Virus record (IMG/VR): IMGVR_UViG_3300017987_000073
Span: 16,563 to 80,562 of that record
Length of the DNA: 64,000 bases
DNA from: a virus
Direction: 5' to 3' (one strand)
Position 1 is the first letter of the stretch. Each line of letters opens with the position of its first letter. Shown piece after piece: positions 8,047 to 46,594 of this stretch. Under the pieces are notes generated by a model, which did no database searches, was not told where the DNA came from, and was given only the letters and a program-made list of their open reading frames with translations. The position numbers were made by a program, and so were the translations under genes.

Positions 8047-8362
8047 AGCTCTCCTCCCAGTAGTGAGGCGACTCCAAGGCGAGCGCCTCGAGCTCCTCCA
8101 CCGTCCGCTCCTCCGTCCCCGCGTCCTTGGCTTCGTCGCACATGAACTCCCCGTGCCAGCACGCGGCCCGGTGACAAGCGGCACAGACCGTCACCGTCCG
8201 CACCTCCTCACACCACGACGTCACCCCAAGGTTGTCCAGGAGGTTCCACAGAACCTCGTTCAACGCCTTCGGATCCTCCTCCTCGAGATCGACCGTGGTC
8301 TCCGCCGTGTCCTCGTTCCCGTTTCCCCGCGAAACCGAGACACCCACCTTGAACCGCTTCAC
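8036..8362 (-). CDS. hypothetical Cys-rich protein
   Basis: GTG 8362 overlapping the amidase stop; CAACHRAACWHGEFMC. Confidence 0.6.
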   Translation of the reverse strand: MKRFKVGVSVSRGNGNEDTAETTVDLEEEDPKALNEVLWNLLDNLGVTSWCEEVRTVTVCAACHRAACWHGEFMCDEAKDAGTEERTVEELEALALESPHYWEESYGS

Positions 8363-9504
8363 TTGATCCTCCAGGACTTCAACTCGCGGTCGAGTCGCCC
8401 GTTCGTCGCCGGCCCGGCGTCCCCGTCCACCTTCAACCCTCGCCCTCGCTGGAAGATCCGCACCGATCGTCGAACCAGGTTCGGGTCGGCCTCGACCCCT
8501 CCCACGTAGTAACCGAGGCGATGCAGCGCCTCGATCGTCTCGTGGGGCGTGTCGATCACCCCCTCGATCCTCCGGGGATCGAAGTCGTCGATATCCTCCT
8601 CCGCCCGATCGGCCTGACGCTCGTCGAGCTCCTGGATCATCCACGGATCGTCGTCGTCCTTGAATCCGTCCTCGACGTCGTCGTACTCGGCGAGCCAGAC
8701 CAGATCGTCCACGTGCGTCTTGTCGAAGAGCACCGCGTTCCGGAGCTCGTGGAGATCCACCGGGAGGACGACGTCGTTCTTGTGGGGGTTCACGTTGTGG
8801 TGAGCGAGCATCCAGAGCGGATCTAGCGACTCGGGGTACAACGCGTTCAGGTACCGCAGGATCGTGATCACCGTGGCCAACGACCCGCGGGAGAACGACT
8901 CCCAGAAGGACACGCCGCCCGACGTCTTGATCCGGATCACCTTCATCCCCGCCGGGATCTTGGTCGTCCACTGCTCAGGCCACCAGTAGAAGTCGAGATC
9001 CTCGACGTCGTGACTCCCGAACTTGAAGAACTCGTCCCGCGTGATGTTCTCCGGGTTCGGACTCTTTCCCTTCAGGCACGGACGCAGAATCCCCGCGTTG
9101 CGAATCTCGGTCCCCGCGAGGTACCGATTGACGTGCCCCGCGTGCCACGAGGGTTGATAGGGGGGAACCACCTGCACAGCCTCCGCCCGGAGGTCATTGT
9201 CGAGCTCGAGCTCCTTCCGGAGCGCGTCGAAGCGCCGGTCGAGCGCCTTCGCGATCACCCAGTTGGAGGACGCCCGGTGCCCGAGCACGAAGTGTCGGAT
9301 CGTCCCGGAGTACTTGACCCCCGCCGTGAAGTGGAGTATGTGCCCGATCGGGTGCTCGTACAGCCACTCGTCGTAGCAATTCCCCGTCGGCCAGTGGGGG
9401 TGAAGCGTCTTCATCGCGACCCGAACGTACTCGGCCGAGTAGGCGGCGAACCTCTCGAAGAAGTCCTTCGCCTCCGCCTTGGTGTAGTGCGTCACTCTGT
9501 TCAT
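8359..9504 (-). CDS. N-acetylmuramoyl-L-alanine amidase (Amidase_2) with C-terminal peptidoglycan-binding domain; probable endolysin
   Basis: ILHFTAG, SWHAG, GTEI and AHH..NPHKND zinc-amidase motifs; LHRLGY...VRIFQRGRGLKVDGDAGPAT PG_binding_1 motif. Confidence 0.88.
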   Translation of the reverse strand: MNRVTHYTKAEAKDFFERFAAYSAEYVRVAMKTLHPHWPTGNCYDEWLYEHPIGHILHFTAGVKYSGTIRHFVLGHRASSNWVIAKALDRRFDALRKELELDNDLRAEAVQVVPPYQPSWHAGHVNRYLAGTEIRNAGILRPCLKGKSPNPENITRDEFFKFGSHDVEDLDFYWWPEQWTTKIPAGMKVIRIKTSGGVSFWESFSRGSLATVITILRYLNALYPESLDPLWMLAHHNVNPHKNDVVLPVDLHELRNAVLFDKTHVDDLVWLAEYDDVEDGFKDDDDPWMIQELDERQADRAEEDIDDFDPRRIEGVIDTPHETIEALHRLGYYVGGVEADPNLVRRSVRIFQRGRGLKVDGDAGPATNGRLDRELKSWRIK

Positions 9505-9927: not shown

Positions 9928-10362
9928 TCACTTCGACCGGTAGTACAACGTGACCTCGCTCAACGCCCGAGGTTTCCCGAGTTTCCTCCAGAGTCCCACC
10001 GAGAGGTCGACTACCGCGCGCCACCTCCACCCCGGGGGCGGCCGCCGCTTCACCCAGACCTTCCACCGTCCCTCGGCGACCGCCCGCTTCAGCTTCCCGC
10101 GGTAGATCCCGAAGGGCCCGGCGTCCTGCACCGTCGCCCACTCGCATCTCTTCGTCCGCCTCGCGCAGACCAGAACCGGCGTCCCGCACCCGATCCGCCA
10201 CCACTTCCGGTGAGCAATGTGAACCTGATCCTCCGTGAACTCCCCGCCGCAGGCCAGCTCGCCGGAATTGAACCCGTCCCCCGGTCGATAGACCGAGAGT
10301 CGCCCCCGCTCCATCTCGTACCCCGAGGAGAGCAGGCTCAGGATCACCGCCACCCAACTCAT
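9928..10362 (-). CDS. RlpA-like double-psi beta-barrel secreted protein
   Basis: Hydrophobic N-terminus; LACG..F, IAHR, GT.V.V, V.DAGPF and VVDLS motifs. Confidence 0.75.
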   Translation of the reverse strand: MSWVAVILSLLSSGYEMERGRLSVYRPGDGFNSGELACGGEFTEDQVHIAHRKWWRIGCGTPVLVCARRTKRCEWATVQDAGPFGIYRGKLKRAVAEGRWKVWVKRRPPPGWRWRAVVDLSVGLWRKLGKPRALSEVTLYYRSK

Positions 10363-10607
10363 CGAACCCGCTCCAACCAACGGTCGACGCCCCCGCGGAT
10401 CCCGCGGAGCGCCGCGTCCTGCTTCTCCGTAACGTGGGACTCCGTGTCGATCCACTCCACGATCCCCTCCACCTTCTCCTGAACCTCCTCCGCGAACTCC
10501 TCGGCCCCCAGCGGGAGCCGCCCGCTCTCCGCGTGCTCCCTCAACAGGTTGAGATCCGCGACCAACTCCTCACCGAAGTCGACCGCCTCGTCCGGTGTTA
10601 TCATCAT
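10359..10607 (-). CDS. hypothetical protein
   Basis: ATGA coupling, GGAGG RBS. Confidence 0.65.
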   Translation of the reverse strand: MMITPDEAVDFGEELVADLNLLREHAESGRLPLGAEEFAEEVQEKVEGIVEWIDTESHVTEKQDAALRGIRGGVDRWLERVR

Positions 10608-35828: not shown

Positions 35829-37452
35829 TCAAAACCTCCCTCTCGAGCTCTCGCACGAGCTCGGGCGTCAGGGGTTCGCGCGACTCCGGCGTCTCCGAGT
35901 ACCACACCCGGTGGGGCGCCCTCACCGCTCGGAAGACCTCCCGCAGGTGGCCCTTTAAACCTCGGACTTTCTTATCCCAAAAGTAAAAGTAGGTCGCGTC
36001 CCCCTTCGTCGGGTGCTTCCGCTTGAAACGCCCGAGCTGCTGCGTCAAGCGCCCGGGGTTGCTCGCCGTCGGCGTGCACCCGAATCCGCGGGCCAGACGC
36101 CCGATGTCCATCCCCTCGTCCCCGACCGTGGTCCCCACCGCGACCAGGAGCGACCCGTCCCCGAGGCGCTCCGCCGTCCGGTCCTGCTCCTTGGAGTTCT
36201 TGCCCGCCATCAGACGACCGCAGTCCACCTTCCGGCGCTTCAGCCACGCCTGGAGCTCCAGGCAGAACTCCCGGCGGTCCGCCAGGAGGAGACACGTCCG
36301 CCCCGAGTGGATCTCCGGGAGGAGGTACTCCAGGATCCGCGCCTGGCGCCCCCGGTCCCGGGACATCTCGTCGAGCATCTCCCCGTGGGTGTTCAGCGGG
36401 CCGTCGAAGAGCGTTTTCCCGGCCCACCGCTTGACCGCGGCGACCGCCGACTCCCGCTCCCTCCGGTCGAAGCCCTCCCGCTCGAGAAACCCCTCCAGGT
36501 TCAGGTCGAACTCGAAGTCCGTCGGGACCACCACCACGTCCACCGGGATGATCCGACCGTAACGGTCGAGGTCCTCGTCCCGGATCTGGAACAGGACCCT
36601 CGGCCCGACCGTCCGCCCCTCGCCCCGCTTCTTCCGGGTGTACTCCGACCCGAAGGAGTCGAAGAAGAGGACCTCCTTCCCGTCCTTCCGCTTCGGGGTC
36701 GCGGTCGCCGCGATCCTCCACCTCGCCGGAAACGAGTTCACGAGCTCGGCGAAGGTCGTCGCCGGCGCGTGGTGCGCCTCATCCAGGACCAGACACCCCC
36801 ACCGCCTCGCGAAGCTCGGGTCCCTCCGAACCAGGTTCAGCACCGTCTTGACCATCCCGATCGTCAGGTTCCGCTCCCGCTTCGCCTTCCCGTACAGAAC
36901 CCCGATCTCACTCTCCTCGACGAAGAACCGCTCCGCCGCCTTCTGGAGCCACCCCTTCAGGATCCGCTCCGTGTGCACGAGCACGAGGGCGCGTTCGCCG
37001 GCGTCGCTGATTAACTTCAGGAGGATCTCCGTCTTCCCGCTCGCGCAGGGCCCGAGGATCACCCCCTGGCGCCGGAGGAGCGCCTGCCGCGCCGCGCTCA
37101 ACTGGTCGGCCCCGAGGTTCCACTCGCTCGGCTCGGCGTAGGTGACCCCGAGCGGTCCGGTCCCGCGGACCGTTCGGTCGTCCACCGCCGGCTCCGCACC
37201 GTTCCTCCGGAGGATCTCGACGAACCGGTCCCACCCTCCGCGGGGAAGGAGGAGCTCCTCCGGGGTCACCTCGACCAGTCCGATCGTCCGCGGCGTGTCT
37301 CCGGTGTAGAACCCGAGGCGTTTCTTCTTCCAGAAGTCCGGGTTGTCGTACTCGAAGGCGTCGCGGAACTCGCGGATCTTGAACCCCTTGTCCAGGAGTT
37401 CCTCTTTAGATAATCGTAACTTGGCGTCTATCGTGACGTTGATTCGTTGCAT
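35821..37452 (-). CDS. superfamily 2 DNA helicase (DEAH; ResIII/UvsW-like)
   Basis: GPCASGKT, LDEAHH, ATATPKRKDG, EGMDI, QQLGRFKR. Confidence 0.93.
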   Translation of the reverse strand: MQRINVTIDAKLRLSKEELLDKGFKIREFRDAFEYDNPDFWKKKRLGFYTGDTPRTIGLVEVTPEELLLPRGGWDRFVEILRRNGAEPAVDDRTVRGTGPLGVTYAEPSEWNLGADQLSAARQALLRRQGVILGPCASGKTEILLKLISDAGERALVLVHTERILKGWLQKAAERFFVEESEIGVLYGKAKRERNLTIGMVKTVLNLVRRDPSFARRWGCLVLDEAHHAPATTFAELVNSFPARWRIAATATPKRKDGKEVLFFDSFGSEYTRKKRGEGRTVGPRVLFQIRDEDLDRYGRIIPVDVVVVPTDFEFDLNLEGFLEREGFDRRERESAVAAVKRWAGKTLFDGPLNTHGEMLDEMSRDRGRQARILEYLLPEIHSGRTCLLLADRREFCLELQAWLKRRKVDCGRLMAGKNSKEQDRTAERLGDGSLLVAVGTTVGDEGMDIGRLARGFGCTPTASNPGRLTQQLGRFKRKHPTKGDATYFYFWDKKVRGLKGHLREVFRAVRAPHRVWYSETPESREPLTPELVRELEREVLNG

Positions 37453-37574
37453 AACCCGTTATAACCGAGCGATGTGAATGGTCCGTTTACAGGGGAGGTT
37501 TTCAAAAAGTCGAGGGGGGAACGTTGAAAAGTTCGGGGACCCCGACCCGCGGCGACGATCCGGACCGGGGCCCC

Positions 37575-38015
37575 CTAGTGGGCCATCTTTTGAACTTGCT
37601 CCAAAGAATCCGCAGGTTTTCTCAACTTCGGACGCGCGACGCGCTTCTCGACCGCGGCGAGCGGCTTCCGCTTGGTGAGTTCGGCGAGGTCCTTCTCCGG
37701 GATCGGGGCTTGCCGGCGGGGACTCCGCGCTAACTTCACCAGGAGCCCCACGAGCTCCCGGCGGTCGTTCGCCGCCTCCCTCCGGATCTCCGCGAGCTCG
37801 CGCCGAGCGGCCTCGAGCTCCGCCTTGTTGGCCCTCACCCACTCCTGGAGGCGGACGATCTGGTCGGCCTTCTCGCGATTCACCGCCGCGACCGTCGTGG
37901 TCTCCGCCTGGTACTGACTCCGCACCGCCGAGTAGGCCCCCGGCAGCGCCACGATCGCGTAGGCGATCACCTTCCCGATCGCGCGCCGGCGGCGCGTCCT
38001 CGCGTCCTCGCTCAT
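37575..38015 (-). CDS. membrane-anchored coiled-coil protein (lysis cassette)
   Basis: Basic N-terminus, one TM helix, coiled coil; GGAGG RBS. Confidence 0.6.
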   Translation of the reverse strand: MSEDARTRRRRAIGKVIAYAIVALPGAYSAVRSQYQAETTTVAAVNREKADQIVRLQEWVRANKAELEAARRELAEIRREAANDRRELVGLLVKLARSPRRQAPIPEKDLAELTKRKPLAAVEKRVARPKLRKPADSLEQVQKMAH

Positions 38016-38028
38016 CTCGACCTCCCGG

Positions 38029-38412
38029 TCACTCGTCGCCGTTGGCCGCCAGCATCTCCGCGGTCACCGCGGGGTGCTCCTGCCCGGTGAGTTTCTTCCG
38101 GGTCACCGTGGATTCGCTGCGGGTCGCCGCGGCGAGCTGAACCACCTTGGTCGAGCTGATCTTCGCCAGCTCGGCGGCGGCCAGGGCCCGCACGTGCGGA
38201 CGGCGACTTCTCAGACCCTCCTGGGCGTGGAGAGCGACCTTCAGTTGACCCTCGTCGATCAGACCTCGATTCAAGAGGAGCTCCCCCAGGATTCGGTCCT
38301 CGCTCATTCGGCTCTGCTCCCGGAGGACGTTACCCAACTCCGACCGCGAGATCGCCTTCATCCGAACGAGGATCGACCCCAGGGAGTGAACCCCCGTGTC
38401 GTCTCTGCTCAT
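38029..38412 (-). CDS. stand-alone MshEN-like (c-di-GMP-binding fold) protein
   Basis: Two tandem motifs, SLGSILVRMKAISRSELGNVLREQ and ILGELLLNRGLIDEGQLKVALHAQ; ATG 38412 overlapping the holin-like stop. Confidence 0.78.
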   Translation of the reverse strand: MSRDDTGVHSLGSILVRMKAISRSELGNVLREQSRMSEDRILGELLLNRGLIDEGQLKVALHAQEGLRSRRPHVRALAAAELAKISSTKVVQLAAATRSESTVTRKKLTGQEHPAVTAEMLAANGDE

Positions 38413-38636
38413 GGTTGCTGACTCCTGCGGATCTCCTTCACGTCCTCCCTGACCTGCTGCAAGGTGGAGTGAACCTGCTCGTCCTTCTTCACCTGGGCGA
38501 CCGCCAACTCGTAGAGCTTGTCCGACAGTGAGACGGAACGCCTCCAGAGCGCGACGACCCCGACGAGCAAGGTCGCGCAGAGCAACCCCCAGGGGGCGCC
38601 GGACTCGAGGAGTCCCTTCAACAGCGAGTGCGTCAT
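38409..38636 (-). CDS. small holin-like membrane protein (BhlA/UviB-like architecture)
   Basis: 75 aa; GAPWGLL TM helix then coiled coil ending VREDVKEIR. Confidence 0.55.
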   Translation of the reverse strand: MTHSLLKGLLESGAPWGLLCATLLVGVVALWRRSVSLSDKLYELAVAQVKKDEQVHSTLQQVREDVKEIRRSQQP

Positions 38637-38713
38637 TCACTTCTCCAGAGCGAGGGGGCGGCGTCACCCTTACAGGGTACCTCAAAAAGTCCACTTTCCA
38701 AGAGGGAGATGAA

Positions 38714-39190
38714 TCAGCGAGCGGCGCTCACGCCGGTGCAGACCCCGCCGGAGATCAACGCCCCGGTGATGAACGCGAGGTACCGGCTCTTGTACCACGG
38801 GGGGGAGGCGCTGGCGCCGTCCAGGGCCTTCTCGTAGATCAGCTTCTGTCGGTCTAGGTCCCGGCGGAGCGCCTCGTACTTCGCCCGCTCAGCGGCGACC
38901 TCGGCGGCGTGGATCGCCGTCAACTTCTCGAGCCGCGCCTTGGTCTTCTCACGCTCGGCCTCGAGCTCGAGCTTGATCTTCCCGACGTCGGACTCGAGCT
39001 CGGTGACCAGCTTCGCCAGGGCGGCGGGGGTGAACAGAACCCCGGTGAAGGGGACCTTCCCCCCCTCCTTCACCTCCGCCCGGCGAACGTCGAGTTTCGG
39101 TGGGTCAGCGCCGAAGGATCTCGTCGACGCGAGCGAGCAGAGCGTCGGGATCGTCAGTGAGATCACGAAACTTCTTAGCAGTCTGTTCAT
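38714..39190 (-). CDS. exported coiled-coil protein with C-terminal TM helix (spanin-like candidate)
   Basis: Signal peptide, G.KVPFTGVL, coiled coil, PWY plus hydrophobic tail; overlaps the upstream gene by 86 nt. Confidence 0.55.
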   Translation of the reverse strand: MNRLLRSFVISLTIPTLCSLASTRSFGADPPKLDVRRAEVKEGGKVPFTGVLFTPAALAKLVTELESDVGKIKLELEAEREKTKARLEKLTAIHAAEVAAERAKYEALRRDLDRQKLIYEKALDGASASPPWYKSRYLAFITGALISGGVCTGVSAAR

Positions 39191-39443
39191 CGAGCTCCTC
39201 CAGTCGCTTCTTCTTACGCTCGGCGATCGCGCGGAGCTCGGCTTCGAGCTCCTTAACCTGTTTCTCCGCGATCGCGCGCGCCTTGGTCTCCGCGTTCTTC
39301 TCCTCGACCAAACGGGTCCGCTCGGAGTCGATCAACCCCGAGCGGTCCACACGCGGTCGGTTTCGGTGGATCAGGTACCAGATCACCCCGACCACCGCTG
39401 CGCCGACGCCGACGCCGATCAAAATCCAACCCCAGGTAGGCAC
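39105..39443 (-). CDS. i-spanin-like membrane protein
   Basis: N-terminal TM helix followed by a charged coiled coil. Confidence 0.5.
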   Translation of the reverse strand: MPTWGWILIGVGVGAAVVGVIWYLIHRNRPRVDRSGLIDSERTRLVEEKNAETKARAIAEKQVKELEAELRAIAERKKKRLEELDEQTAKKFRDLTDDPDALLARVDEILRR

Positions 39444-39446
39444 GAC

Positions 39447-40055
39447 TCACCCCACCTTCGGCTTCGTGGCCTCGGCCGCGGCGACCTTCGCCTCCGCCTC
39501 CGGGATCTTGGCGAGGATCATCCCGCGGAGCTTGGCCTTGATCCGCTCCACTCCCTTCAGTTTGGCGTCGACCTGGTCGACGAACTCCCAGGCCCACTCC
39601 TCCTTCTTGGCCCCGTCGCTCTTCACCCCCTTCTCTCTGAGGTAAGCGGCTCCCTTCTTCTCCGCGTAGGTCGCCGCCTTGTCCGCGATCCCGTCGAGCG
39701 TCTCGAGTTCGACTTTCAGACCCATCTTCCGCAGAAGCCAGAAGACGAGGACCGACAGAACCGGGATCAGAATCGGCACCACCAGCTTGAAGATCACGTC
39801 GTAGAGCAGCGCCTGCCACCAGGTTTGTGTGGGCTCCTGAGCGGCCGCAGGGGCGGTCGCCGGCGCGGTGGTGCTCTCGCCCACGTGAGGCGCCGCGGGC
39901 GTCGTGGCGGGCGCCGACGGCGCCGGAGCGCCCGAATCCACGACCGCCCCGGCCGCGGGTTGGGTAGCGGTTCCCACGTCCGGGGCGGCTAGGATAGGTG
40001 CGGCTAAGCTAAGAGCGGTCACGATAACCAGAATTTGTGCAATTTTACGAGTCAT
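39447..40055 (-). CDS. LL-H-family holin-like membrane protein with N-terminal signal and Ala/Pro linker
   Basis: TM helix, then IADKAATYAEK...GAKKEEWA. Confidence 0.5.
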   Translation of the reverse strand: MTRKIAQILVIVTALSLAAPILAAPDVGTATQPAAGAVVDSGAPAPSAPATTPAAPHVGESTTAPATAPAAAQEPTQTWWQALLYDVIFKLVVPILIPVLSVLVFWLLRKMGLKVELETLDGIADKAATYAEKKGAAYLREKGVKSDGAKKEEWAWEFVDQVDAKLKGVERIKAKLRGMILAKIPEAEAKVAAAEATKPKVG

Positions 40056-40079
40056 TTCACTCTCCTTTTCGAAAGTTGG

Positions 40080-40535
40080 TCACTGCGGGGCGTGTTCCCC
40101 GCAGGTGCTCACGTTCTCGGTGTCCGGGGTGACCGGCGCGAGGGTGGCGGCCGGGCGCGCCGGGCGCGTCGACTCCGGGAGACTCGACGCCGACGGGTCC
40201 GAGGTGGGCGCCGCCCCGGTCGGGATCGACAGCTTCTTCGCGGCGACCTTCTCGATCACCCGCTTCGCCAGGCCCTCGACCCGCTCGACGGGCTTCCCGT
40301 TCTCGATCCGCTCCACCTTCGACTCCTCGAGCGCGACCGGGAGGACCTCCCGCTCGGCGTGGTCGACGGCGTCGAGCAGAGCGGAGACCGAGAGCTTGAC
40401 TCGCCGCGCGCAGGTGGGACACAACGCGTTGTGGATCGACCTCGTGCCCCGCCGACGGAGCTCCCGGAGGTCCTCCAGGGGGATCTCGACCTCGAAGTCG
40501 TGCCCGTCGCAGGGCACCGTGAAGGTTTGAATCAT
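40080..40535 (-). CDS. hypothetical protein
   Basis: GGAGG RBS; CDGH...CPTC. Confidence 0.55.
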   Translation of the reverse strand: MIQTFTVPCDGHDFEVEIPLEDLRELRRRGTRSIHNALCPTCARRVKLSVSALLDAVDHAEREVLPVALEESKVERIENGKPVERVEGLAKRVIEKVAAKKLSIPTGAAPTSDPSASSLPESTRPARPAATLAPVTPDTENVSTCGEHAPQ

Positions 40536-40547
40536 CTCGTCCTCCGA

Positions 40548-43500
40548 TCAGGGGTGCTGCAAGTTGTGGGAGTTCCCGAACCTACCGACCACCGCCTCCT
40601 TGTCCCAGAACTCCCAGTAATCCAGGACCACGTTCTTAGCCGCCGCGGCCTGCGTCTGGAGCCAGATCGACGGCGCCACCATCGCGGGGTCCCCCGCGAG
40701 CGAGGCGTGGAAACCCGACTCGCCCCCGTAGGAGTTGGCGACGTGGTTCTTCTTCTCGATCGTCCAAAACGCCATCGTCCCGGTGATCTCGATCTCGAAC
40801 CACTGGTACTCATCGACCGACAGTCCGCAGATCGGGTCGGTGACGTACCAACTCGAGGGAGGCTCGAGCCACCCGCCGCGCCACGTTCCGATCGGGTCGC
40901 CGGCGTAGTTGAGGACGAAGTACCACCTCCGGTTGCTCCCGCCGCTGTTCTGGTAGAAGCCGTGGACGAGTTGCATGTCGGTGAACGAGGAGACCTTGAC
41001 CCTCGAGCGGTACATCCACCGGAAGTCGTGGTCGCTGTCCACGTTGCAGGGGAGGAGATCCAGCCCCATTTCCGCGACGTCCGAGATCGAGGTCCCCGTG
41101 ATCAGCTCGACGCACCCGTGCCCGAACCCAGCTCCGTCCGTGACGTCCCGAACGTAGGCGCTCCCACCCCCCACGAAGTTGGTGTAGTAGGGTCCGAGGG
41201 AGGTGAAGGGACTCCCCGTCCGCGGGTAGGTCAGGAAGTCGTCCCGGAAGTGGGGACCTCGATCCACCGCGCCGTTGGTCTGGACCGCGAACGTCGGCCA
41301 GGTGTGCTGCGTCGGGATCAACTCCGGGAAGCCGTAATCCACGACCAGGGCGAACGCCGTGTCCCGGTCGGAGAGCAGCCCGCCGGCGTTGTAGATCCGG
41401 AGCCCGTCGCGCGAGTAGTAGTCCTCCTCACCGGTCGCCCCGGTCGCCACCCCGCCGTTGATCAGGACCGACCGCAGGAACTTGATCGGCCAGTCGATCG
41501 GGTCGGCTCCGACCTTGCTCGGGTCGATCACGATCATCTCGCGCGGCTCGTAGTACTGCGACGCCCCCGACTTCGAGTGGTCGTAGACCACGATCTTCCC
41601 GGCCTCGGTCAGGATCCGGAGATCCGCGGCGTTCCGCTGTCCGTCCTGGAGGGTGAGGATCGTCCCCTGCCACCACTCCGCGTTGCCTCCCCCGAACGGC
41701 GCCGAGTTGGCCACCGTGAAGCGCGGCATCAGAACGCTGCACTTGCACGAACCCCCCACGAAAGTCTTCGCGATCCCGTCGAGACGTCGGAGATCGAACG
41801 TGTTCGTCGTGAAGGCGTCGATCACGTACAGCCCCTCGTCCGACTCGTCGTCCGCGTCGAACACCCACACGAGGTGCATCTTCGCGTTCAGACGAAGAGC
41901 GAGCGCCTCCAGATCCACCCCCGAGCGGTTCAGGGTGAGCGTCCAGCTCGACGTCGAGAGGGTGCAGTCCGTCTCCTCGTTCAGGAGGTCCGTCCCGGAG
42001 TTGATCGGCTGGACGCACGCGATCGGGATCGCCGAGACGTCGCCCATCTCGGCCAGCATCATAAACTGGCCGTAGTCGCTCGACCCGTACTTGCTCAGGG
42101 TCAAGAGACTGTTCCTCGGCCCACCGGTCTCCGCCAGGGAGGTAACCCGGATCGTGCCGTGCTTCGTGATCCTCCCGTGGACCTCGTCGCCGGCGTTGCT
42201 CATGAACTCCGCGGCGTCCGAGGAGTTCCGCCCGTAGATCCGGAGCGGCGCCGGAGCACCCTCCACGTTCCCGCCGGTGAGCGTCAGGGCCCGGGTAACC
42301 GCCTTGTGCTGGTCCGCCGCGATCGACTCCCCGCTGGCCATCACCGCCCGGAGGATCGAGACGTTCCCCGTCTCGGAGCTCCCCCAGGGCGTGGTCACCG
42401 CCGATCCGTCCAGGTTCTCGAGAGTCAGGACCGCCGCCGCGATCGAGGTGATCTTGTAGAGTCGGTTCATCCCGCTCGTCGCGAAGTCCCACAGGAGGAC
42501 GAAGTCGGCGTCCTCGTCCACGTTCGCGGTCACCGCGTCCGCTCCCCCGCGGGTCAGGTTCACCGTACCCGCCGCCCCGGTCGTCCCCGGTTCGTCCTCC
42601 TGGAGCACCGTGGAGTGGACGATCGGCGTCAGGTTGCAGAGCGCGACCCCCGTCTGGCGCTCGTTGATCAGGGTCAGCGAGAGCGGAGCGCCCTCGGTCG
42701 CCCCCTTCCGGTCGAGGACCAGGAGGGAATTCATCGAGTCGCCGGAGTCCGAGCTCTGGATCCGCACCGCCCCGCCGTAGGTCGAGCTCGGGGTGATCGT
42801 CCGACCCGAGGTGTAGGCTTCCTGGAGGTCCGGGTTGATCCCGTCGGAGACGTCCACCTGGTCGATCACCGAGTACCCACCGGGGACGTTTCCCGCGCCC
42901 CCGCCGGTCACGATCCCCACGAACGCGTAGGGCGAGGTCGACCGAAGGTCCGTCTTCCGCACCGTCACCCCCTGGGCGTGGACCTGGTAGTCCGCGACGT
43001 CGGTCGACGCCGCCCCGCTCGCCTGCCCCAGGAGCCCCGCCGTCTGGACGTAGTTCTTCGACCCGTCCCACTGAACCAGGAGGTTCCGCTCGATCGCGAC
43101 CGAGTCGTCGATCGTCTTCGCCCGGCGGAGCCAAACCGTCGCCAGCCGCCCGGCGTGCGTCACCCCGGACTCGAAGACCGAGTCCACCTGGATCGTGAGC
43201 TGCCCGCTCGCCTCCGTCACCGCGTCCGGCTCGTCCACCTCGCCGATCGCGTCCACCTCCACGTCGTAGAACATCGCCGACGAGATCCGCGGGTTCCGAA
43301 GAACCCCGTCCGGGACCAGGCAGTGACGCACCGCCACGTAGTAGGGGACCCCGAGCGAGTTCTCGAAGTAAATCGCCGTCCCGTCCGCCCCGTCCAGCGT
43401 CAAGATGTTCCCGTCGCCGTCGAGCCAGTCCTTCGGGAGGTTCGAGACCGTGAATCGGTCCGTTCCCCCGGAGACGATCGAGCACGACCCGAAGCAACCC

Positions 43501-43634
43501 CGTTGACTCCCCCAGACCCGCTGAGAGATCTCCCGGAGCCGGAGCTCGAGGTAGTCGAAGAAGGTGTCCTTTATCCGCTGTTGACCGAGGTTCCGCTTGT
43601 CCTCGAAGTAGGTTCTCTCTTCACCCGTCGACAT
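40548..43634 (-). CDS. large tail fibre/baseplate structural protein
   Basis: 1028 aa, beta-rich, C-terminal FRDDF lectin-like region; follows the wedge gene. Confidence 0.7.
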   Translation of the reverse strand: MSTGEERTYFEDKRNLGQQRIKDTFFDYLELRLREISQRVWGSQRGCFGSCSIVSGGTDRFTVSNLPKDWLDGDGNILTLDGADGTAIYFENSLGVPYYVAVRHCLVPDGVLRNPRISSAMFYDVEVDAIGEVDEPDAVTEASGQLTIQVDSVFESGVTHAGRLATVWLRRAKTIDDSVAIERNLLVQWDGSKNYVQTAGLLGQASGAASTDVADYQVHAQGVTVRKTDLRSTSPYAFVGIVTGGGAGNVPGGYSVIDQVDVSDGINPDLQEAYTSGRTITPSSTYGGAVRIQSSDSGDSMNSLLVLDRKGATEGAPLSLTLINERQTGVALCNLTPIVHSTVLQEDEPGTTGAAGTVNLTRGGADAVTANVDEDADFVLLWDFATSGMNRLYKITSIAAAVLTLENLDGSAVTTPWGSSETGNVSILRAVMASGESIAADQHKAVTRALTLTGGNVEGAPAPLRIYGRNSSDAAEFMSNAGDEVHGRITKHGTIRVTSLAETGGPRNSLLTLSKYGSSDYGQFMMLAEMGDVSAIPIACVQPINSGTDLLNEETDCTLSTSSWTLTLNRSGVDLEALALRLNAKMHLVWVFDADDESDEGLYVIDAFTTNTFDLRRLDGIAKTFVGGSCKCSVLMPRFTVANSAPFGGGNAEWWQGTILTLQDGQRNAADLRILTEAGKIVVYDHSKSGASQYYEPREMIVIDPSKVGADPIDWPIKFLRSVLINGGVATGATGEEDYYSRDGLRIYNAGGLLSDRDTAFALVVDYGFPELIPTQHTWPTFAVQTNGAVDRGPHFRDDFLTYPRTGSPFTSLGPYYTNFVGGGSAYVRDVTDGAGFGHGCVELITGTSISDVAEMGLDLLPCNVDSDHDFRWMYRSRVKVSSFTDMQLVHGFYQNSGGSNRRWYFVLNYAGDPIGTWRGGWLEPPSSWYVTDPICGLSVDEYQWFEIEITGTMAFWTIEKKNHVANSYGGESGFHASLAGDPAMVAPSIWLQTQAAAAKNVVLDYWEFWDKEAVVGRFGNSHNLQHP

Positions 43635-43645
43635 TCAGCCCTCCT

Positions 43646-46594
43646 TTAAGGCCACTCCGCGCACTCGTTGGAATCCGGTGGATCCCCGTCCGGCGGCGGT
43701 CCGATCCGAGCGTACTCGTGGGGGCAGACCGAGACGTCCACCAGTCTGCACGTCGCCTCCTGCCCGGTCAACGACGCGATCGCCAGCTTCCCCTCGTGTC
43801 TCTCGTCGTTCGTCGCCTCGAGCACCTTGTCGCCGTCCAGGAACCCCTTGATCAGGAGCGTCGGACCGGCGACTATCTCGGTCTGTACCATCAGATTGTA
43901 GTAGATATCCTCCCGGAAGTTCGCCGGGTAGACCCGCGAGTCGAGCTCGGTCCGCACGCCCCCGATCACCTTGTCCAGGTAGACCTTCCGGTTCGCCCCC
44001 AGCGGGTCGAAACCGATCGCGTGAAAGTTGTCCTCGTCGAGGTAGTCGAAGCGGAGCTCGCATCGACCGCCCGGCACGTCCGAGAACTTCACCTGGATCC
44101 ACGCCGTGAGGTTCGTCCAGTTCGCGTCGAGGTTCGCGTCCGTCTTGAACACGCACCCCGCCGGAAGCGTGATCTCCCCCGCGTCGAAGTCCTCGACCGG
44201 AGTCCCGCTCACCGTGAGCCACGCCCCCGACCGCTTGAACTTGTCCTGAAAGGCGAGCCACCGGACGAAGATACGCTCGTTCGCCGGCCTCATCACCCGA
44301 ACCAGGTTCTCGATCAGGTCGCGGTCGACGTCCCCGTCGTCCACCACCCGCACGTCCGAGCAGAACTCGTCGGGGTCCACCCCGACCCGGAAATCGTTCA
44401 GCGTGTCCGTCGAGAGCGGCGCCGGCAGCCCGAACCCGTCCGTCACGTGGCACCGGTTCGCGCTCCCGTCCCAGAAGGAGTAGACCGTCCGGACCACGTT
44501 CTTCGGGACGTACTTCACCCGCACCCGGTGGGGGACCGCCTCCGTCGTCCCGAGGAGCGTCGAGAGGTCGAAGTCCAGGGTCGGGAGCGGCCCGACGTCG
44601 TCCCAGTGCACTCCCCAGGTCTGCACCGCCGAGACGTCGTTGTAACCGAAGGTGTACCCCGACCAGGCGCTCGCCGCGAACGTCGACGCGTTCACGTTTC
44701 CGAACACGTCGATCCCGTTGATCGACGCCTTGACGTAGGTCCCCGTCCGCTGGATCCTCATCCGGTACGTCTCCCCCGCCACGAACCGGTAGTTGATCGG
44801 ACCGGCTCGCACCGTTCCTCCGGCGTCCACCAGAGCGACCGTCACGTCCGACCACTGGAGGAAGTACTCCCTCACCCCGTCCCCGAGCCCGATCCTCCAC
44901 GGGCGCCCGTTCAGGGAGACCACGTCGGTCCCCGTCCACCTCGCCCCGAACTCCGCCGCCGTCGGGTCCAGCGCGGCGTCCTCCCGCGTGTAGTAACCTC
45001 CCTCGTCGTTCCCCACGTGTTGGTCGTGGTAGAGCCGCCCCGCCGAGAGCGAGAAGTGCGTCCCCTCCGCCCCACCGTTCACCGCGTGGTACGTCCACCC
45101 CGGATCGTCCGCCGAGGGTAGGAGGTCCATCTCGAGCACCCCGTCGACCTCCAGCGCGTCGGGGTACGTCGAGGGACTCATCCCCGGCTCGTCCAGGAGC
45201 CACACGTCCGGGTAGAGCTCGGCGTGACCGATCTCCATCTCCTCGATCAGCACCCGGAAGTGGAACCAATTCAACGTCCGGACCTGCTTCGCGCTCATCG
45301 ACTCGAGCGTCTCGACCAGACCTTTCGACGTCCCCTTGTACTTCCACATCCGCGCCGCGATCGAGATCAAGCGCCGGAGGTCCGCTTCCGCCAGCCCTCC
45401 GGTCAGGTAGTCCAGCTTCGAGGTCAAACCTACGATCCACTTCAGGTACTGGAGCGCGTCCGCCGGCGTCTCCGCCGGGTCGTTGATCTTCATCAGGGAC
45501 TTGATCCGCGCGTAGGTCGCCTCCCACTCCTTCTGAGGCCCGCGGAGCCACCGCCAGACGAGCAGGTCCCCGTAGTGACGATCCAGGTCCCTCATAGACT
45601 GCATCAGGAACCGCCAGATGTCCCACGAGAACTCGGCCTCCGTCGTGAAGCTCCAGCTCTCCGTCGCGCTCAACCCCATCGCGTCCTCGACGTAGACCTG
45701 GACCAGGAACGTCGAGGACCCGTCGACCGGGTCGGTCGGGACCAGCGAGACGTTGTAACCGTTGATCGCGTTCGGGTCGATGACGCTCCCCGACCACGCC
45801 GCGTCCCAGCTCGAGCCGTCGTAGATCTCCTGCCCGTCCCAGTAGACCTTGATCAACACCACCCCGACGTTGTCCCCCACCGCGAACTCGAAGGGCCCGT
45901 CCCGCGGGACGTCCGTCGAGCCCGCCGCCGGGTCCTGGTCCGTCACGTAGGGCGGCGTCGAGTCGAGCTCCTTCGTCTCGAAGGTGTAGGAGTAGCACTC
46001 GAAGAACCGGAGCCCGTCCCAGACCTCCACCCGAACGCTGATCAGGGAGTCGTCCGGGAGGTCGCTCGGCGGCGTCAGCTCGTAGTCGAAGCCGTACTCG
46101 TCGTTCGCCGGCTTCGAGGCGCTCCAGCCGTTCTGAGCGGCCCCGTTCTCGTAGACCGACAACCACCCCCCGCCGCCCCCGTCGTCCACTGAGACCTTCA
46201 CCAGGGTGTCCTCGACCCCGATCGACTCCACGTCCGCGTGGGTCTCCCCCAGGACGTTCACCCCCCGCTTCTCCGTCTCCGGCACGATGTCCCCGAGCGG
46301 AATCACCAGCGAGAGCCCCTGCGGATCCACCTCCGTCTCGCCGGCGTAAGGCGCCAAGCTCGCCGTGATCACGTAGGGGTTGGTCTCCGGAGTCGGAACT
46401 CGCTCGATCGAGAAGCTCGTCGCCTCCCCCACGTACTCCGACCAGATCGGGACCTCCCCCTGCCGCTCCAGGTCCCCGACGAAGAGGTAACTCGCGATCG
46501 TCTCCTCGACGTACTCGTCCCCCCACAGGGGGACCTCACCCTGGCGATCCAGGGTGGCGACGTCGAAGGTCGAGGTTTTTCCGGTCCAGGTCAT
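43646..46594 (-). CDS. baseplate wedge protein (P2 gpI-like domain with Ig-like and lectin-like domains)
   Basis: DPAETPADALQYL.WIVG...RRLI..AARMWKYKGT..GL; Ig-like DSTPPYV...P..G.TDVP. Confidence 0.8.
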   Translation of the reverse strand: MTWTGKTSTFDVATLDRQGEVPLWGDEYVEETIASYLFVGDLERQGEVPIWSEYVGEATSFSIERVPTPETNPYVITASLAPYAGETEVDPQGLSLVIPLGDIVPETEKRGVNVLGETHADVESIGVEDTLVKVSVDDGGGGGWLSVYENGAAQNGWSASKPANDEYGFDYELTPPSDLPDDSLISVRVEVWDGLRFFECYSYTFETKELDSTPPYVTDQDPAAGSTDVPRDGPFEFAVGDNVGVVLIKVYWDGQEIYDGSSWDAAWSGSVIDPNAINGYNVSLVPTDPVDGSSTFLVQVYVEDAMGLSATESWSFTTEAEFSWDIWRFLMQSMRDLDRHYGDLLVWRWLRGPQKEWEATYARIKSLMKINDPAETPADALQYLKWIVGLTSKLDYLTGGLAEADLRRLISIAARMWKYKGTSKGLVETLESMSAKQVRTLNWFHFRVLIEEMEIGHAELYPDVWLLDEPGMSPSTYPDALEVDGVLEMDLLPSADDPGWTYHAVNGGAEGTHFSLSAGRLYHDQHVGNDEGGYYTREDAALDPTAAEFGARWTGTDVVSLNGRPWRIGLGDGVREYFLQWSDVTVALVDAGGTVRAGPINYRFVAGETYRMRIQRTGTYVKASINGIDVFGNVNASTFAASAWSGYTFGYNDVSAVQTWGVHWDDVGPLPTLDFDLSTLLGTTEAVPHRVRVKYVPKNVVRTVYSFWDGSANRCHVTDGFGLPAPLSTDTLNDFRVGVDPDEFCSDVRVVDDGDVDRDLIENLVRVMRPANERIFVRWLAFQDKFKRSGAWLTVSGTPVEDFDAGEITLPAGCVFKTDANLDANWTNLTAWIQVKFSDVPGGRCELRFDYLDEDNFHAIGFDPLGANRKVYLDKVIGGVRTELDSRVYPANFREDIYYNLMVQTEIVAGPTLLIKGFLDGDKVLEATNDERHEGKLAIASLTGQEATCRLVDVSVCPHEYARIGPPPDGDPPDSNECAEWP

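What the first reader, a model, noticed from the sequence alone, without database searches (positions are those of the whole stretch)
38029..38636. Stand-alone MshEN-like protein coupled to a holin-like gene
Seen: two tandem copies of the LGxxL(V/L)xxxxIxxxxLxxxLxxQ motif, in a gene joined by an ATGA overlap to a small membrane protein within the membrane/lysis cassette. Established: MshEN (RLGxxLxxxGxxxxxxLxxxLxxQ twice) is a c-di-GMP receptor of PilB/GspE ATPases and is abundant in Deltaproteobacteria/Myxococcota. Here the Arg before LG is Ser or Ile (an Arg lies one residue earlier in repeat 2), so binding may be altered. Inference: the phage may sense or sequester c-di-GMP to tune lysis, or interfere with pilus/T2SS assembly for superinfection exclusion. 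It also hints at a deltaproteobacterial-type host.
Basis: partly seen in the sequence, partly recalled or inferred. Interest (0 to 1): 0.7.

Follow-up and report, generated by a model that had tools for sequence, protein, structure and literature searches.

The report
Phage MshE-like helical protein with membrane partner
An uncultured ~100-kb phage encodes a small protein built from the c-di-GMP-binding helical motif pair of pilus/secretion ATPases, lacking the usual arginines and always translationally coupled to a tiny one-pass membrane protein; this is a conserved, undescribed two-gene phage module whose link to lysis or c-di-GMP is still unproven.

Summary
Window 38029-38412(-) encodes a 127-aa protein with two tandem 24-residue MshE-type motifs (residues 10-33 and 41-64, 7-residue spacer). 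Its ATG overlaps, as ATGA, the stop of a 75-aa one-pass membrane protein (38409-38636). Homology to the MshEN N-subdomain is significant. NCBIfam NF053729 'c-di-GMP_motif, MshE-related' scores 41.1 bits against a cut-off of 38. A family profile against PDB gives PilF 6e-20, Geobacter PilB 1e-9 and MshE 3e-7.

It is not a complete MshEN domain. Pfam PF05157 finds nothing, the alpha/beta C-subdomain is replaced by a long helix and a conserved C-terminal tail, and AF2 models do not superpose on solved MshEN. The stacking Arg is replaced across the family (motif I: Ser/Thr; motif II: Leu/Met), unlike cellular relatives (R/K/P 71% versus 11%).

New here: about 100 clusters of 95-160-aa relatives exist, all from metagenomes or viral contigs. 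In 10 of 10 distinct loci the gene directly follows the same ~75-aa membrane protein, in 8 of them with a 4-nt overlap.

The 'lysis cassette' label is only weakly supported: Rz-like and holin hits are marginal, and the endolysin candidate lies 29 kb away. Function remains inferred. The same stretch was noted once before by this scan, in another window of this genome.

The parts
38029..38412 (-). Gene for the 127-aa MshEN_N-like protein (P0001), stop codon included
   Evidence: ORF and translation. NCBIfam NF053729 41.1 bits against cut-off 38. PDB profile hits to PilF, PilB and MshE. Full-length relatives of about 125 aa.
38314..38385 (-). Motif I (residues 10-33, SLG...Q). Arg position is Ser; Gly10 position is Lys.
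   Evidence: Read against the motif in PMC5013675. Family statistics for position 1: S 50, T 8, R 2 of 71.
38221..38292 (-). Motif II (residues 41-64, ILG...Q). Arg position is Ile; all other key positions are kept.
   Evidence: Family position 1: L 45, M 9, R 4, K 3 of 71.
38032..38199 (-). C-terminal extension (residues 72-127): long helix 72-108 with the conserved RALAxAxLA, then the conserved TGxxHPA(V/I)TxxML tail. It replaces the alpha/beta C-subdomain of MshEN.
   Evidence: AF2 model, pLDDT 90.9, helices H72-108 and H118-124. Conservation. No PDB sequence match.
38409..38636 (-). Gene for the 75-aa one-pass membrane partner (P0002). Conserved motifs: LLxGLLxxGAPWGxxCA, the TM segment, LWRR, SDKLYxL and IRR.
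   Evidence: 86 clusters of relatives, all from metagenomes or viral contigs. No Pfam, NCBIfam or PADLOC family.
38409..38412 (-). ATGA stop/start overlap between partner gene and MshEN-like gene (translational coupling)
   Evidence: The same ATGA/GTGA overlap occurs in L001, L004, L006, L007, L011, L015 and L016/L017.
37575..38015 (-). Downstream neighbour, 146 aa: N-terminal TM segment plus coiled coil. Conserved next to the module in the close relatives.
   Evidence: Weak match to PHROG 89, Rz-like spanin, E 0.003.
38714..39190 (-). Upstream neighbour, 158 aa: signal peptide, coiled coil, C-terminal TM segment. Its start overlaps the preceding gene by 86 nt.
   Evidence: Homologue directly upstream of the module in L001, L006, L011, L015 and L017; in L004 its homologue lies about 3.5 kb upstream, with other genes between.
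39105..39443 (-). 112-aa protein with N-terminal TM segment plus coiled coil (i-spanin-like or PspB-like)
   Evidence: PHROG 2466, Rz-like spanin, E 1.2e-4. PspB E 9e-4 to 2e-3.
39447..40055 (-). 202-aa membrane protein (signal peptide, Ala/Pro-rich stretch, TM segment, helical domain). Weak candidate holin.
   Evidence: TIGR01673 holin_LLH E 0.0086, 16.5 bits against cut-off 34.75, matched by 1 of 4 orthologues only.

Best explanation
The two overlapping genes encode a conserved phage two-protein module. The 75-aa protein is a one-pass inner-membrane protein. By the positive-inside rule (WRR directly after the TM segment), its charged helical tail is predicted to face the cytoplasm. The 127-aa protein has no signal peptide, is made in fixed proportion through stop/start coupling, and most likely docks on that tail.

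Its N-terminal half descends from the MshE-type 53-residue helical c-di-GMP module. Its C-terminal half (long helix plus conserved TGxxHPAVTxxML tail) is family-specific.

Most likely role: a cytoplasmic regulatory subunit of a membrane-acting late function, comparable to a holin/antiholin pair that sets lysis timing. The MshEN-derived bundle would act as the sensing or binding surface. Binding of c-di-GMP or a related dinucleotide is possible but altered, because both stacking arginines are replaced across the family.

Shown: homology, architecture, the conserved gene pairing, phage-only distribution. Inferred: complex formation, topology, the lysis role and any ligand.
For: Homology of residues ~8-66 to MshEN_N:
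- NCBIfam NF053729 above cut-off, and the NfrB MshEN region at E 7e-6.
- PDB profile hits: PilF 6e-20, PilB 1e-9 across both motifs, MshE 3.2e-7.
- In each motif 5 of the 6 key residues (L, G, L17, L21, Q24) are kept, and Q24 is kept in 92% of family motifs.

Module:
- In the window and in L001, L004, L006 and L007 the gene just upstream is the same 73-81-aa TM protein with a 4-nt overlap. L007 is a different phage with different neighbours.
- 10 of 10 metagenome loci retrieved through the partner alone carry the MshEN-like gene directly downstream. These collapse to 7 distinct loci, three of them already seen; with the window and L007 that makes 10 distinct loci in all, 8 with the 4-nt overlap.
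- Contig lengths of partner hits and MshEN-like hits coincide: 98640, 101817, 32324, 9087, 4159, 27386, 1935, 5926, 118367.

Phage-specific distribution:
- Every locus fetched from IMG/VR lies on a viral contig of 25-105 kb.
- Neither gene was found in 185,579 species genomes.

Context:
- The module follows tail-fibre-like genes, inside a run of five membrane/coiled-coil proteins with marginal Rz-like and holin_LLH-like matches.
- ESM-Atlas neighbours of the partner are viral clusters, one with Holin_BhlA in 15% of members.

Known precedents for a holin followed by a soluble antiholin: P1 LydA/LydB (abstract of PMC9025707), and T4 RIII, a cytoplasmic antiholin (my own knowledge).
Against: - No family model names the partner as a holin. 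All Rz-like and holin hits in the cluster are below cut-offs and typical of TM-plus-coiled-coil composition.
- The endolysin candidate is 29 kb away.
- The record has no GGDEF or EAL gene.
- Pfam MshEN finds nothing even at E 10.
- AF2 models (pLDDT 88-91) do not superpose on solved MshEN. 5htl is rank 4 at E 7.3 with rmsd 11.4 A, and the best VIA Z is 3.7 to unrelated chains.
- The Arg at motif position 1 is lost, and the segment before motif I is acidic (mean net charge -1.0 over 8 residues), whereas MshE has a basic patch there. In the non-binding PilF GSPII-A domain a Ser at the motif-II Arg position is one of the deviations blamed (PMC12002112).
- No direct evidence of a physical complex. 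A pair could not be modelled with the tools at hand.
Confidence: 0.4

Rival explanations
1. Host-machine interference. The protein mimics the N-terminal (N1/MshEN) domain of PilB/GspE-type ATPases and, anchored at the membrane by its partner, competes with or poisons the type IV pilus or type II secretion platform. The effect would be superinfection exclusion or host takeover.
For: The best solved relatives are the N-domains of the T4P ATPases PilB and PilF. Small phage proteins that disable PilB (Tip, Aqs1) or act through PilZ (Zip) are established (PMC11656802). PATAN (PatA_N) domains, whose helical insert gives the only Pfam hits of this family, bind the pilus motor in Synechocystis (title and abstract of bioRxiv 10.1101/2021.06.11.447907). 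Loss of the ligand-stacking Arg fits a role in protein binding rather than nucleotide binding.
Against: Known PilB inhibitors are unrelated in sequence and come mostly from temperate phages. Here the module was not found in any of 185,579 cellular genomes, so no prophage copies were seen. Its position after the tail-fibre genes among lysis-like membrane proteins suggests late expression. The host, and whether it has T4P, is unknown.
Confidence: 0.2
2. Nucleotide sink. The protein is a high-copy binder (sponge) of c-di-GMP or of a defence-derived cyclic dinucleotide such as 3'3'-cGAMP. It would lower the free signal during infection.
For: The MshE-type motif model scores above its cut-off. Hydrophobic contacts, not Arg, give most of the binding energy in MshEN: Leu mutants lose more than 10-fold in affinity, while Arg9, Asp12 and Gln32 mutants lose less than 5-fold. 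MshEN also binds cGAMP weakly (PMC5013675).
Against: An obligate, translationally coupled membrane partner is not expected for a soluble sponge. The approach to the site is acidic. Both stacking arginines are lost. The AF2 model does not reproduce the holo MshEN bundle.
Confidence: 0.1
3. A structural or adaptor role unrelated to lysis or signalling. For example, a membrane-tethered helper of virion assembly, genome ejection or replication-complex anchoring, in which the MshEN-derived hairpins serve only as a stable helical scaffold.
For: The motif hairpin is a promiscuous building block. Cellular relatives carry 3-8 copies fused to glycosyltransferase, Hpt, peptidase C39 and other domains. 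The module lies between the tail-fibre genes and the helicase/replication genes. Neighbours differ in distant phages; L010 has a patatin-like phospholipase upstream and L007 has unrelated genes.
Against: Gln24 of both motifs, a ligand-contacting and not a core residue in MshEN, is kept in 92% of family motifs. That argues for a retained binding site rather than a mere scaffold.
Confidence: 0.3

Closest known systems
MshEN (T2SSE_N / GSPII) c-di-GMP receptor domain of MshE, PilB, PilF and NfrB
   Same: Two tandem 24-residue motifs forming helix-turn-helix hairpins. L2, G3, the hydrophobic pairs, L17, L21 and Q24 are conserved in both. The spacer is 7 residues, as in Geobacter PilB. The sequence matches are significant.
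   Different: - Only the N-terminal helical subdomain is present. The alpha/beta C-subdomain and the ATPase or glycosyltransferase are absent.
- Arg at position 1 is replaced by Ser/Thr (motif I) and Leu/Met/Ile (motif II) across the family.
- The flank before motif I is acidic rather than basic.
- The helical C-terminal extension and tail motif are family-specific.
- The gene is phage-encoded and paired with a membrane protein.
- The predicted tertiary arrangement does not match solved MshEN.
[quoted passage not shown]
   Same: An MshEN-type motif pair with non-consensus residues at ligand-contacting positions, including Ser in place of the stacking Arg of one motif (PMC12002112). It shows that such domains can persist without nucleotide binding.
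   Different: GSPII-A also lacks both Gln24 residues (H33, R62), and its site is blocked by an N-capped extension of helix 1 that packs on its own C-subdomain. The phage family keeps both Gln and has no C-subdomain.
PATAN / PatA_N (PF14332, DUF4388) helical insert
   Same: The only Pfam family that the phage proteins and their multi-repeat cellular relatives touch. The hits fall on profile positions ~30-85, the helical insert. ESM-Atlas structural neighbours carry PatA_N or MshEN.
   Different: Hits are below the gathering score for the phage proteins (best 16.3 bits against 25 for P0001). The PATAN core fold is absent.
Holin plus soluble antiholin pairs (P1 LydA/LydB; T4 holin T with cytoplasmic RIII)
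   Same: A small membrane protein gene is followed by, or acts with, a small soluble cytoplasmic protein that would bind it and tune the membrane lesion. This is a resemblance of working principle only.
   Different: No sequence or fold similarity was found. Holin activity of the 75-aa protein is untested. Known antiholins are not MshEN-derived. (RIII is cited from my own knowledge; LydA/LydB from the abstract of PMC9025707.)
Phage-encoded PilB inhibitors Tip/Aqs1 and the PilZ binder Zip
   Same: Small phage proteins that act on the T4P assembly ATPase (PMC11656802). The phage protein here resembles the N-domain of that ATPase.
   Different: Unrelated in sequence, no membrane partner, and carried by temperate Pseudomonas phages. 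No target is known here.

Membership tests
MshE-type 53-residue c-di-GMP-binding motif domain (NCBIfam NF053729) | Score above the curated cut-off of the family model | tested here: met
   P0001 scores 41.1 bits against cut-off 38, E 1.1e-10, in 2 stretches. Relatives P0010 score 51.5 and P0027 40.9. The margin is small.
MshE-type 53-residue c-di-GMP-binding motif domain | Two tandem 24-residue motifs with L2, G3, L17, L21 and Q24, joined by a short spacer | tested here: met
   Residues 10-33 and 41-64 with a 7-residue spacer, read against PMC5013675. The spacer is 7 residues in 56 of 71 family members.
MshE-type 53-residue c-di-GMP-binding motif domain | Arg (relaxed: R/K/P/N) at motif position 1, stacking on the guanine | tested here: not met
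   P0001 has S10 and I41. In the family, motif I is S/T in 58 of 71 and motif II is L/M in 54 of 71. R/K/P make up 11% of family motifs against 71% in long cellular relatives.
MshE-type 53-residue c-di-GMP-binding motif domain | Binds c-di-GMP | not testable with these tools
   Needs ITC or DRaCALA. Literature: Arg9 mutants lose less than 5-fold in affinity and Leu mutants more than 10-fold. The non-binder PilF GSPII-A has Ser at one Arg position.
MshEN / T2SSE_N whole domain (Pfam PF05157) | Match to the Pfam model (90 positions), including the C-terminal alpha/beta subdomain | tested here: not met
   No hit for P0001 at E<=1. None of 43 relatives hits at E<=0.01. No hit in six frames of the whole record at E<=10. 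The AF2 model is all-helical with no strands.
MshEN / T2SSE_N whole domain | Four-helix-bundle N-subdomain that superposes on solved MshEN/PilF GSPII structures | tested here: inconclusive
   N-terminal model (pLDDT 88.5): Foldseek ranks 5htl fourth at E 7.3, TM 0.39, rmsd 11.4 A. No MshEN chain appears among the VIA-wide top 50, where the best Z is 3.7. In the whole model, 9g1w gives Z 2.4. Short helical models and apo/holo differences limit this test.
Phage holin (for the 75-aa partner) | Small membrane protein with at least one TM segment and a charged C-terminal tail | tested here: met
   75 aa, one hydrophobic segment at about residues 14-32, charged tail. These features are generic and do not prove function.
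Phage holin (for the 75-aa partner) | Match to a described holin family, or adjacency to an endolysin | tested here: not met
   No Pfam, PHROG, NCBIfam or PADLOC family. The only lead is an ESM-Atlas neighbour cluster with Holin_BhlA in 15% of members. The endolysin candidate lies at 8359-9504, 29 kb away.
Phage holin (for the 75-aa partner) | Forms lethal membrane lesions that release endolysin | not testable with these tools
   Needs expression and lysis assays.

The most novel reading that the evidence does not exclude
A clade of large uncultured phages carries a dedicated second-messenger-gated membrane switch. A minimal, Arg-less MshEN-derived sensor sits on the cytoplasmic tail of a one-pass holin-like protein and couples the host's c-di-GMP (or another cyclic dinucleotide) level to the timing of lysis or another membrane event. 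This would be the first virus-encoded MshEN-type receptor and a new kind of antiholin.
Probability: 0.15. Interest if true: 0.85.

Novelty: new variant of a known kind. Interest (0 to 1): 0.55.

Why it matters
MshEN is one of the most widespread c-di-GMP receptor modules, yet the literature searches here found it described only in cellular proteins.

This is a phage-specific, minimal version with about 100 clusters of 95-160-aa relatives, none of them named beyond 'hypothetical protein'. It has a fixed membrane partner and a systematic replacement of the stacking arginines.

If it binds a nucleotide, phages would be reading host second-messenger state at the membrane, and the minimal requirements of the MshEN site would need redefining. 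If it does not bind, it is a natural example of the motif pair re-used as a protein-binding module, or possibly a decoy of PilB/GspE N-domains.

Either result is obtainable with two small proteins that are easy to express.

Tried and rejected
Genomic contexts came from the search for related loci instead.
Narrower alignments were used.
- **blastn of 37000-44000 against 50,697 phage records:** no match.
- **Fold searches:** Foldseek on PDB and VIA-align (wide, and a second look), with the whole model and with residues 1-72 alone, gave no convincing fold match. The whole-model lists are dominated by the long helix.
- **PDB sequence searches** with the partner family and with the C-terminal half of P0001 found nothing.
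- **PADLOC:** nothing for either gene.
- **Possible shared upstream promoter-like element** (TACCCTSTA) before the module: not enriched in the window, 5 matches found against 5.1 expected. Dropped. The sigma-70 and terminator scan of 37300-40700 was uninformative.
- **CdgR of cyanobacteria** was checked as a possible stand-alone MshEN receptor. It is ComFB-like and not related.
- **holin_LLH** for the 202-aa neighbour: only 1 of 4 orthologues gives the weak hit. Kept as a lead only.
- **Lysozyme and SLT families** were not found in the record.

Full report
**1. What is there**

All long ORFs of the window lie on the minus strand, and GC skew is uniformly negative. The record is an 80.6-kb viral contig, estimated 79% complete. 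It carries a helicase and a replication initiator. First-stage notes add PolB, ThyX and a sigma factor; I did not check those.

At 38412->38029 lies a 127-aa ORF, P0001. At 38636->38409 lies a 75-aa ORF, P0002. The stop of P0002 and the ATG of P0001 share ATGA at 38409-38412. A GGAG lies upstream of each start (read).

P0001 contains two motif copies:
- S10-LGSILVRMKAISRSELGNVLRE-Q33
- I41-LGELLLNRGLIDEGQLKVALHA-Q64

These are two copies of the 24-residue MshE motif RLGxx(L/V/I)(L/V/I)xxG(L/V/I)(L/V/I)xxxxLxxxLxxQ (PMC5013675). Each keeps L2, G3, L17, L21 and Q24. Both lack Arg1 (Ser and Ile), and motif I has Lys for Gly10. The spacer is 7 residues, as in Geobacter PilB.

**2. Is it an MshEN relative?**

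By sequence, yes.
- phmmer against PDB finds only T4P ATPase N-domains and MshE/PilF GSPII domains (PilB 5tsg, E 1.4e-3).
- A 4-sequence profile raises this to 1.8e-7.
- A 43-sequence family profile gives PilF 6e-20, Geobacter PilB 1e-9 (query 8-66 against chain 23-81, both motifs in one alignment) and MshE 3.2e-7.
- NCBIfam has a 53-position model of exactly this motif region, NF053729 'cyclic di-GMP-binding domain-containing protein, MshE-related'. P0001 scores 41.1 bits against a curated cut-off of 38. It also touches the MshEN region of NfrB at E 7e-6.

Other tests are negative.
- Pfam's MshEN model (PF05157) finds nothing in P0001, in 43 relatives, or in six frames of the whole record at E<=10.
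- The only Pfam contact is the helical insert of DUF4388/PatA_N, below threshold. The same is true of multi-repeat cellular relatives, so Pfam barely models this hairpin.
- AF2 gives confident all-helical models: whole protein pLDDT 90.9 with helices 11-17, 23-35, 38-48, 54-67, 72-108 and 118-124; residues 1-72 alone pLDDT 88.5.
- Neither model superposes on solved MshEN. 5htl appears at rank 4 with E 7.3 and rmsd 11.4 A, and the best VIA Z is 3.7 to unrelated chains.
- ESM-Atlas structural neighbours are PatA_N and MshEN clusters at TM about 0.5.

In short, the motif region is homologous. The alpha/beta C-subdomain is absent and is replaced by a long helix and a conserved tail. The tertiary arrangement is unconfirmed.

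**3. The family**

An exhaustive profile search found 1564 proteins at E<=1e-3 and 173 at E<=1e-10. Of the proteins held from these searches, 98 are 95-160 aa long, and most of the top hits in that range align over the full length of the profile. The rest are long cellular proteins with 3-8 copies of the hairpin.

The short family shares these features:
- the two motifs;
- 'LRS' after Q64;
- 'RA(L/M)AxA' in the long helix;
- a C-terminal 'TGxx(H/Y)PA(I/V)TxxML'.

Position 1 of motif I is S or T in 58 of 71 members (R in 2). Position 1 of motif II is L or M in 54 of 71 (R or K in 7). Counting all motif instances, R/K/P make up 11% in the short family against 71% in the long cellular relatives. 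Q24 is kept in 92% of family motifs. The eight residues before motif I are on average acidic (-1.0), whereas MshE has a basic patch there.

The Arg loss is therefore a fixed family character, not decay of this one gene.

No member carries a Pfam domain or any name other than 'hypothetical protein'. One sits in a MAG labelled Patescibacteria.

**4. The module**

In the window and in four IMG/VR contigs (L001, L004, L006 with its duplicate L005, and L007), the gene directly upstream is a 73-81-aa one-pass membrane protein. It carries the motifs LLxGLLxxGAPWGxxCA, the TM segment, LWRR, SDKLYxL and IRR, and it overlaps the MshEN-like start by 4 nt. L007 is a different phage with otherwise different neighbours.

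As an independent test I searched metagenome contigs with the partner alone. All 10 loci found carry an MshEN-like gene immediately downstream. After collapsing duplicates there are 10 distinct instances:
- 8 have an ATGA or GTGA overlap;
- 1 has a 17-nt overlap (L012);
- 1 has a disrupted partner ORF (L010).

The partner family has at least 86 clusters. Their contig lengths repeatedly coincide with those of MshEN-like hits. Neither family was found in 185,579 species-representative genomes. All fetched loci are viral contigs of 25-105 kb.

This is a conserved, phage-restricted, translationally coupled gene pair.

**5. Context, and the 'lysis cassette'**

In transcription order the region reads:
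- tail-fibre-like 1028-aa protein;
- 151-aa Cys-pair protein;
- 202-aa membrane protein;
- 112-aa protein with TM segment plus coiled coil;
- 158-aa protein with signal peptide, coiled coil and C-terminal TM segment, overlapping the previous gene by 86 nt;
- partner (P0002);
- P0001;
- 146-aa protein with TM segment plus coiled coil;
- helicase.

Lysis-type evidence is marginal: Rz-like PHROGs at E 1.2e-4 and 3e-3, and holin_LLH at 16.5 bits against a cut-off of 34.75, in 1 of 4 orthologues.

The one endolysin candidate (PG_binding_1 above cut-off, weak Amidase_2) is at 8359-9504, 29 kb away. Lysozyme and SLT families are absent. The record has no GGDEF or EAL gene.

'Membrane cassette' is shown. 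'Lysis cassette' is plausible but not shown.

**6. Mechanism**

The positive-inside rule (WRR after the TM segment) puts the partner's charged helical tail in the cytoplasm. P0001 has no signal peptide, so it is there too. Stop/start overlap implies proportional synthesis. The simplest reading is a membrane-tethered heterocomplex.

I rate a holin/antiholin-like or other late membrane-regulatory pair at about 0.4. The rivals are:
- interference with T4P/T2SS by mimicry of the PilB/GspE N-domain, about 0.2 (precedents Tip, Aqs1 and Zip; PMC11656802);
- a dinucleotide sponge, about 0.1;
- a scaffold or adaptor role unrelated to signalling, about 0.3.

I put c-di-GMP binding itself at roughly one in three.
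- For: all hydrophobic contacts and both Gln are conserved, and Arg9 mutants of MshE lose less than 5-fold in affinity.
- Against: both arginines and the basic patch are gone, the non-binder PilF GSPII-A shows a similar Ser substitution, and the AF2 models do not form the holo-like bundle.

**7. Novelty**

Full-text searches found no description of a phage-encoded MshEN-type protein, nor of c-di-GMP-linked holin control.

The domain kind is known. The architecture (motif pair plus helical tail), the Arg-less signature, the obligate membrane partner and the phage restriction are new. I class it as a new variant of a known kind.

The host remains unknown. The 'deltaproteobacterial' hint cannot be judged beyond ESM-Atlas neighbour labels, Myxococcota and Planctomycetota.

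Noticed in passing
window 38714-39443 (-); also L001 6810-7617, L004 1571-2306, L006 4969-5686: A conserved pair of overlapping genes. A ~112-141-aa protein with N-terminal TM segment plus coiled coil is followed by a ~153-166-aa protein with signal peptide, coiled coil and C-terminal TM segment, whose start lies 86-119 nt inside the first gene. The layout recalls overlapped i-/o-spanin genes, but the second protein has no conserved lipobox Cys and ends in a TM segment.
   Followed up: partly
window 8359-9504 (-): 381-aa protein with a C-terminal PG_binding_1 domain (above cut-off) and a weak Amidase_2 match. It is the only endolysin candidate found in the record, and it lies far from the membrane-protein cluster.
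   Followed up: partly
window 9928-10455 (-): 175-aa protein near the endolysin candidate, with an N-terminal hydrophobic segment. By eye its sequence recalls RlpA/3D-type cell-wall-binding domains, but Pfam gave no hit.
   Followed up: partly
L010 3139-3975 (+): In a distant phage contig, a patatin-like phospholipase gene (PF01734, E 6.8e-27) lies directly upstream of the partner/MshEN-like module. In that locus the partner ORF is interrupted (46-aa fragment).
   Followed up: partly
L001 8793-9410 (+); L012 5-634 (+): A ~205-aa membrane protein with an HExxH-like motif (HERRH / HECRH) sits beside the module in two loci. In L001 it is inserted between the MshEN-like gene and the 207-aa TM/coiled-coil gene. 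It is absent from the window. No Pfam family.
   Followed up: no
window 39447-40055 (-): 202-aa membrane protein with a weak holin_LLH (TIGR01673) match, E 0.0086. It may be a better holin candidate than the 75-aa protein, but only 1 of 4 orthologues gives the hit.
   Followed up: partly
window 40548-43634 (-); L001 3317-5794; L006 666-3743: Large tail-fibre-like proteins share a conserved N-terminus and a conserved C-terminus ending ...HNLQHP, with variable middles. No PHROG family matches any of the large structural proteins of this phage.
   Followed up: no
proteins P0026-P0154: Cellular proteins with 3-8 tandem copies of the same LG...Q hairpin, fused to GT2 glycosyltransferase, Hpt, peptidase C39 or dockerin/TSP3 modules. 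Pfam recognises them only through the helical insert of DUF4388/PatA_N and spurious FumaraseC_C hits, which suggests the hairpin repeat is under-modelled in Pfam.
   Followed up: partly
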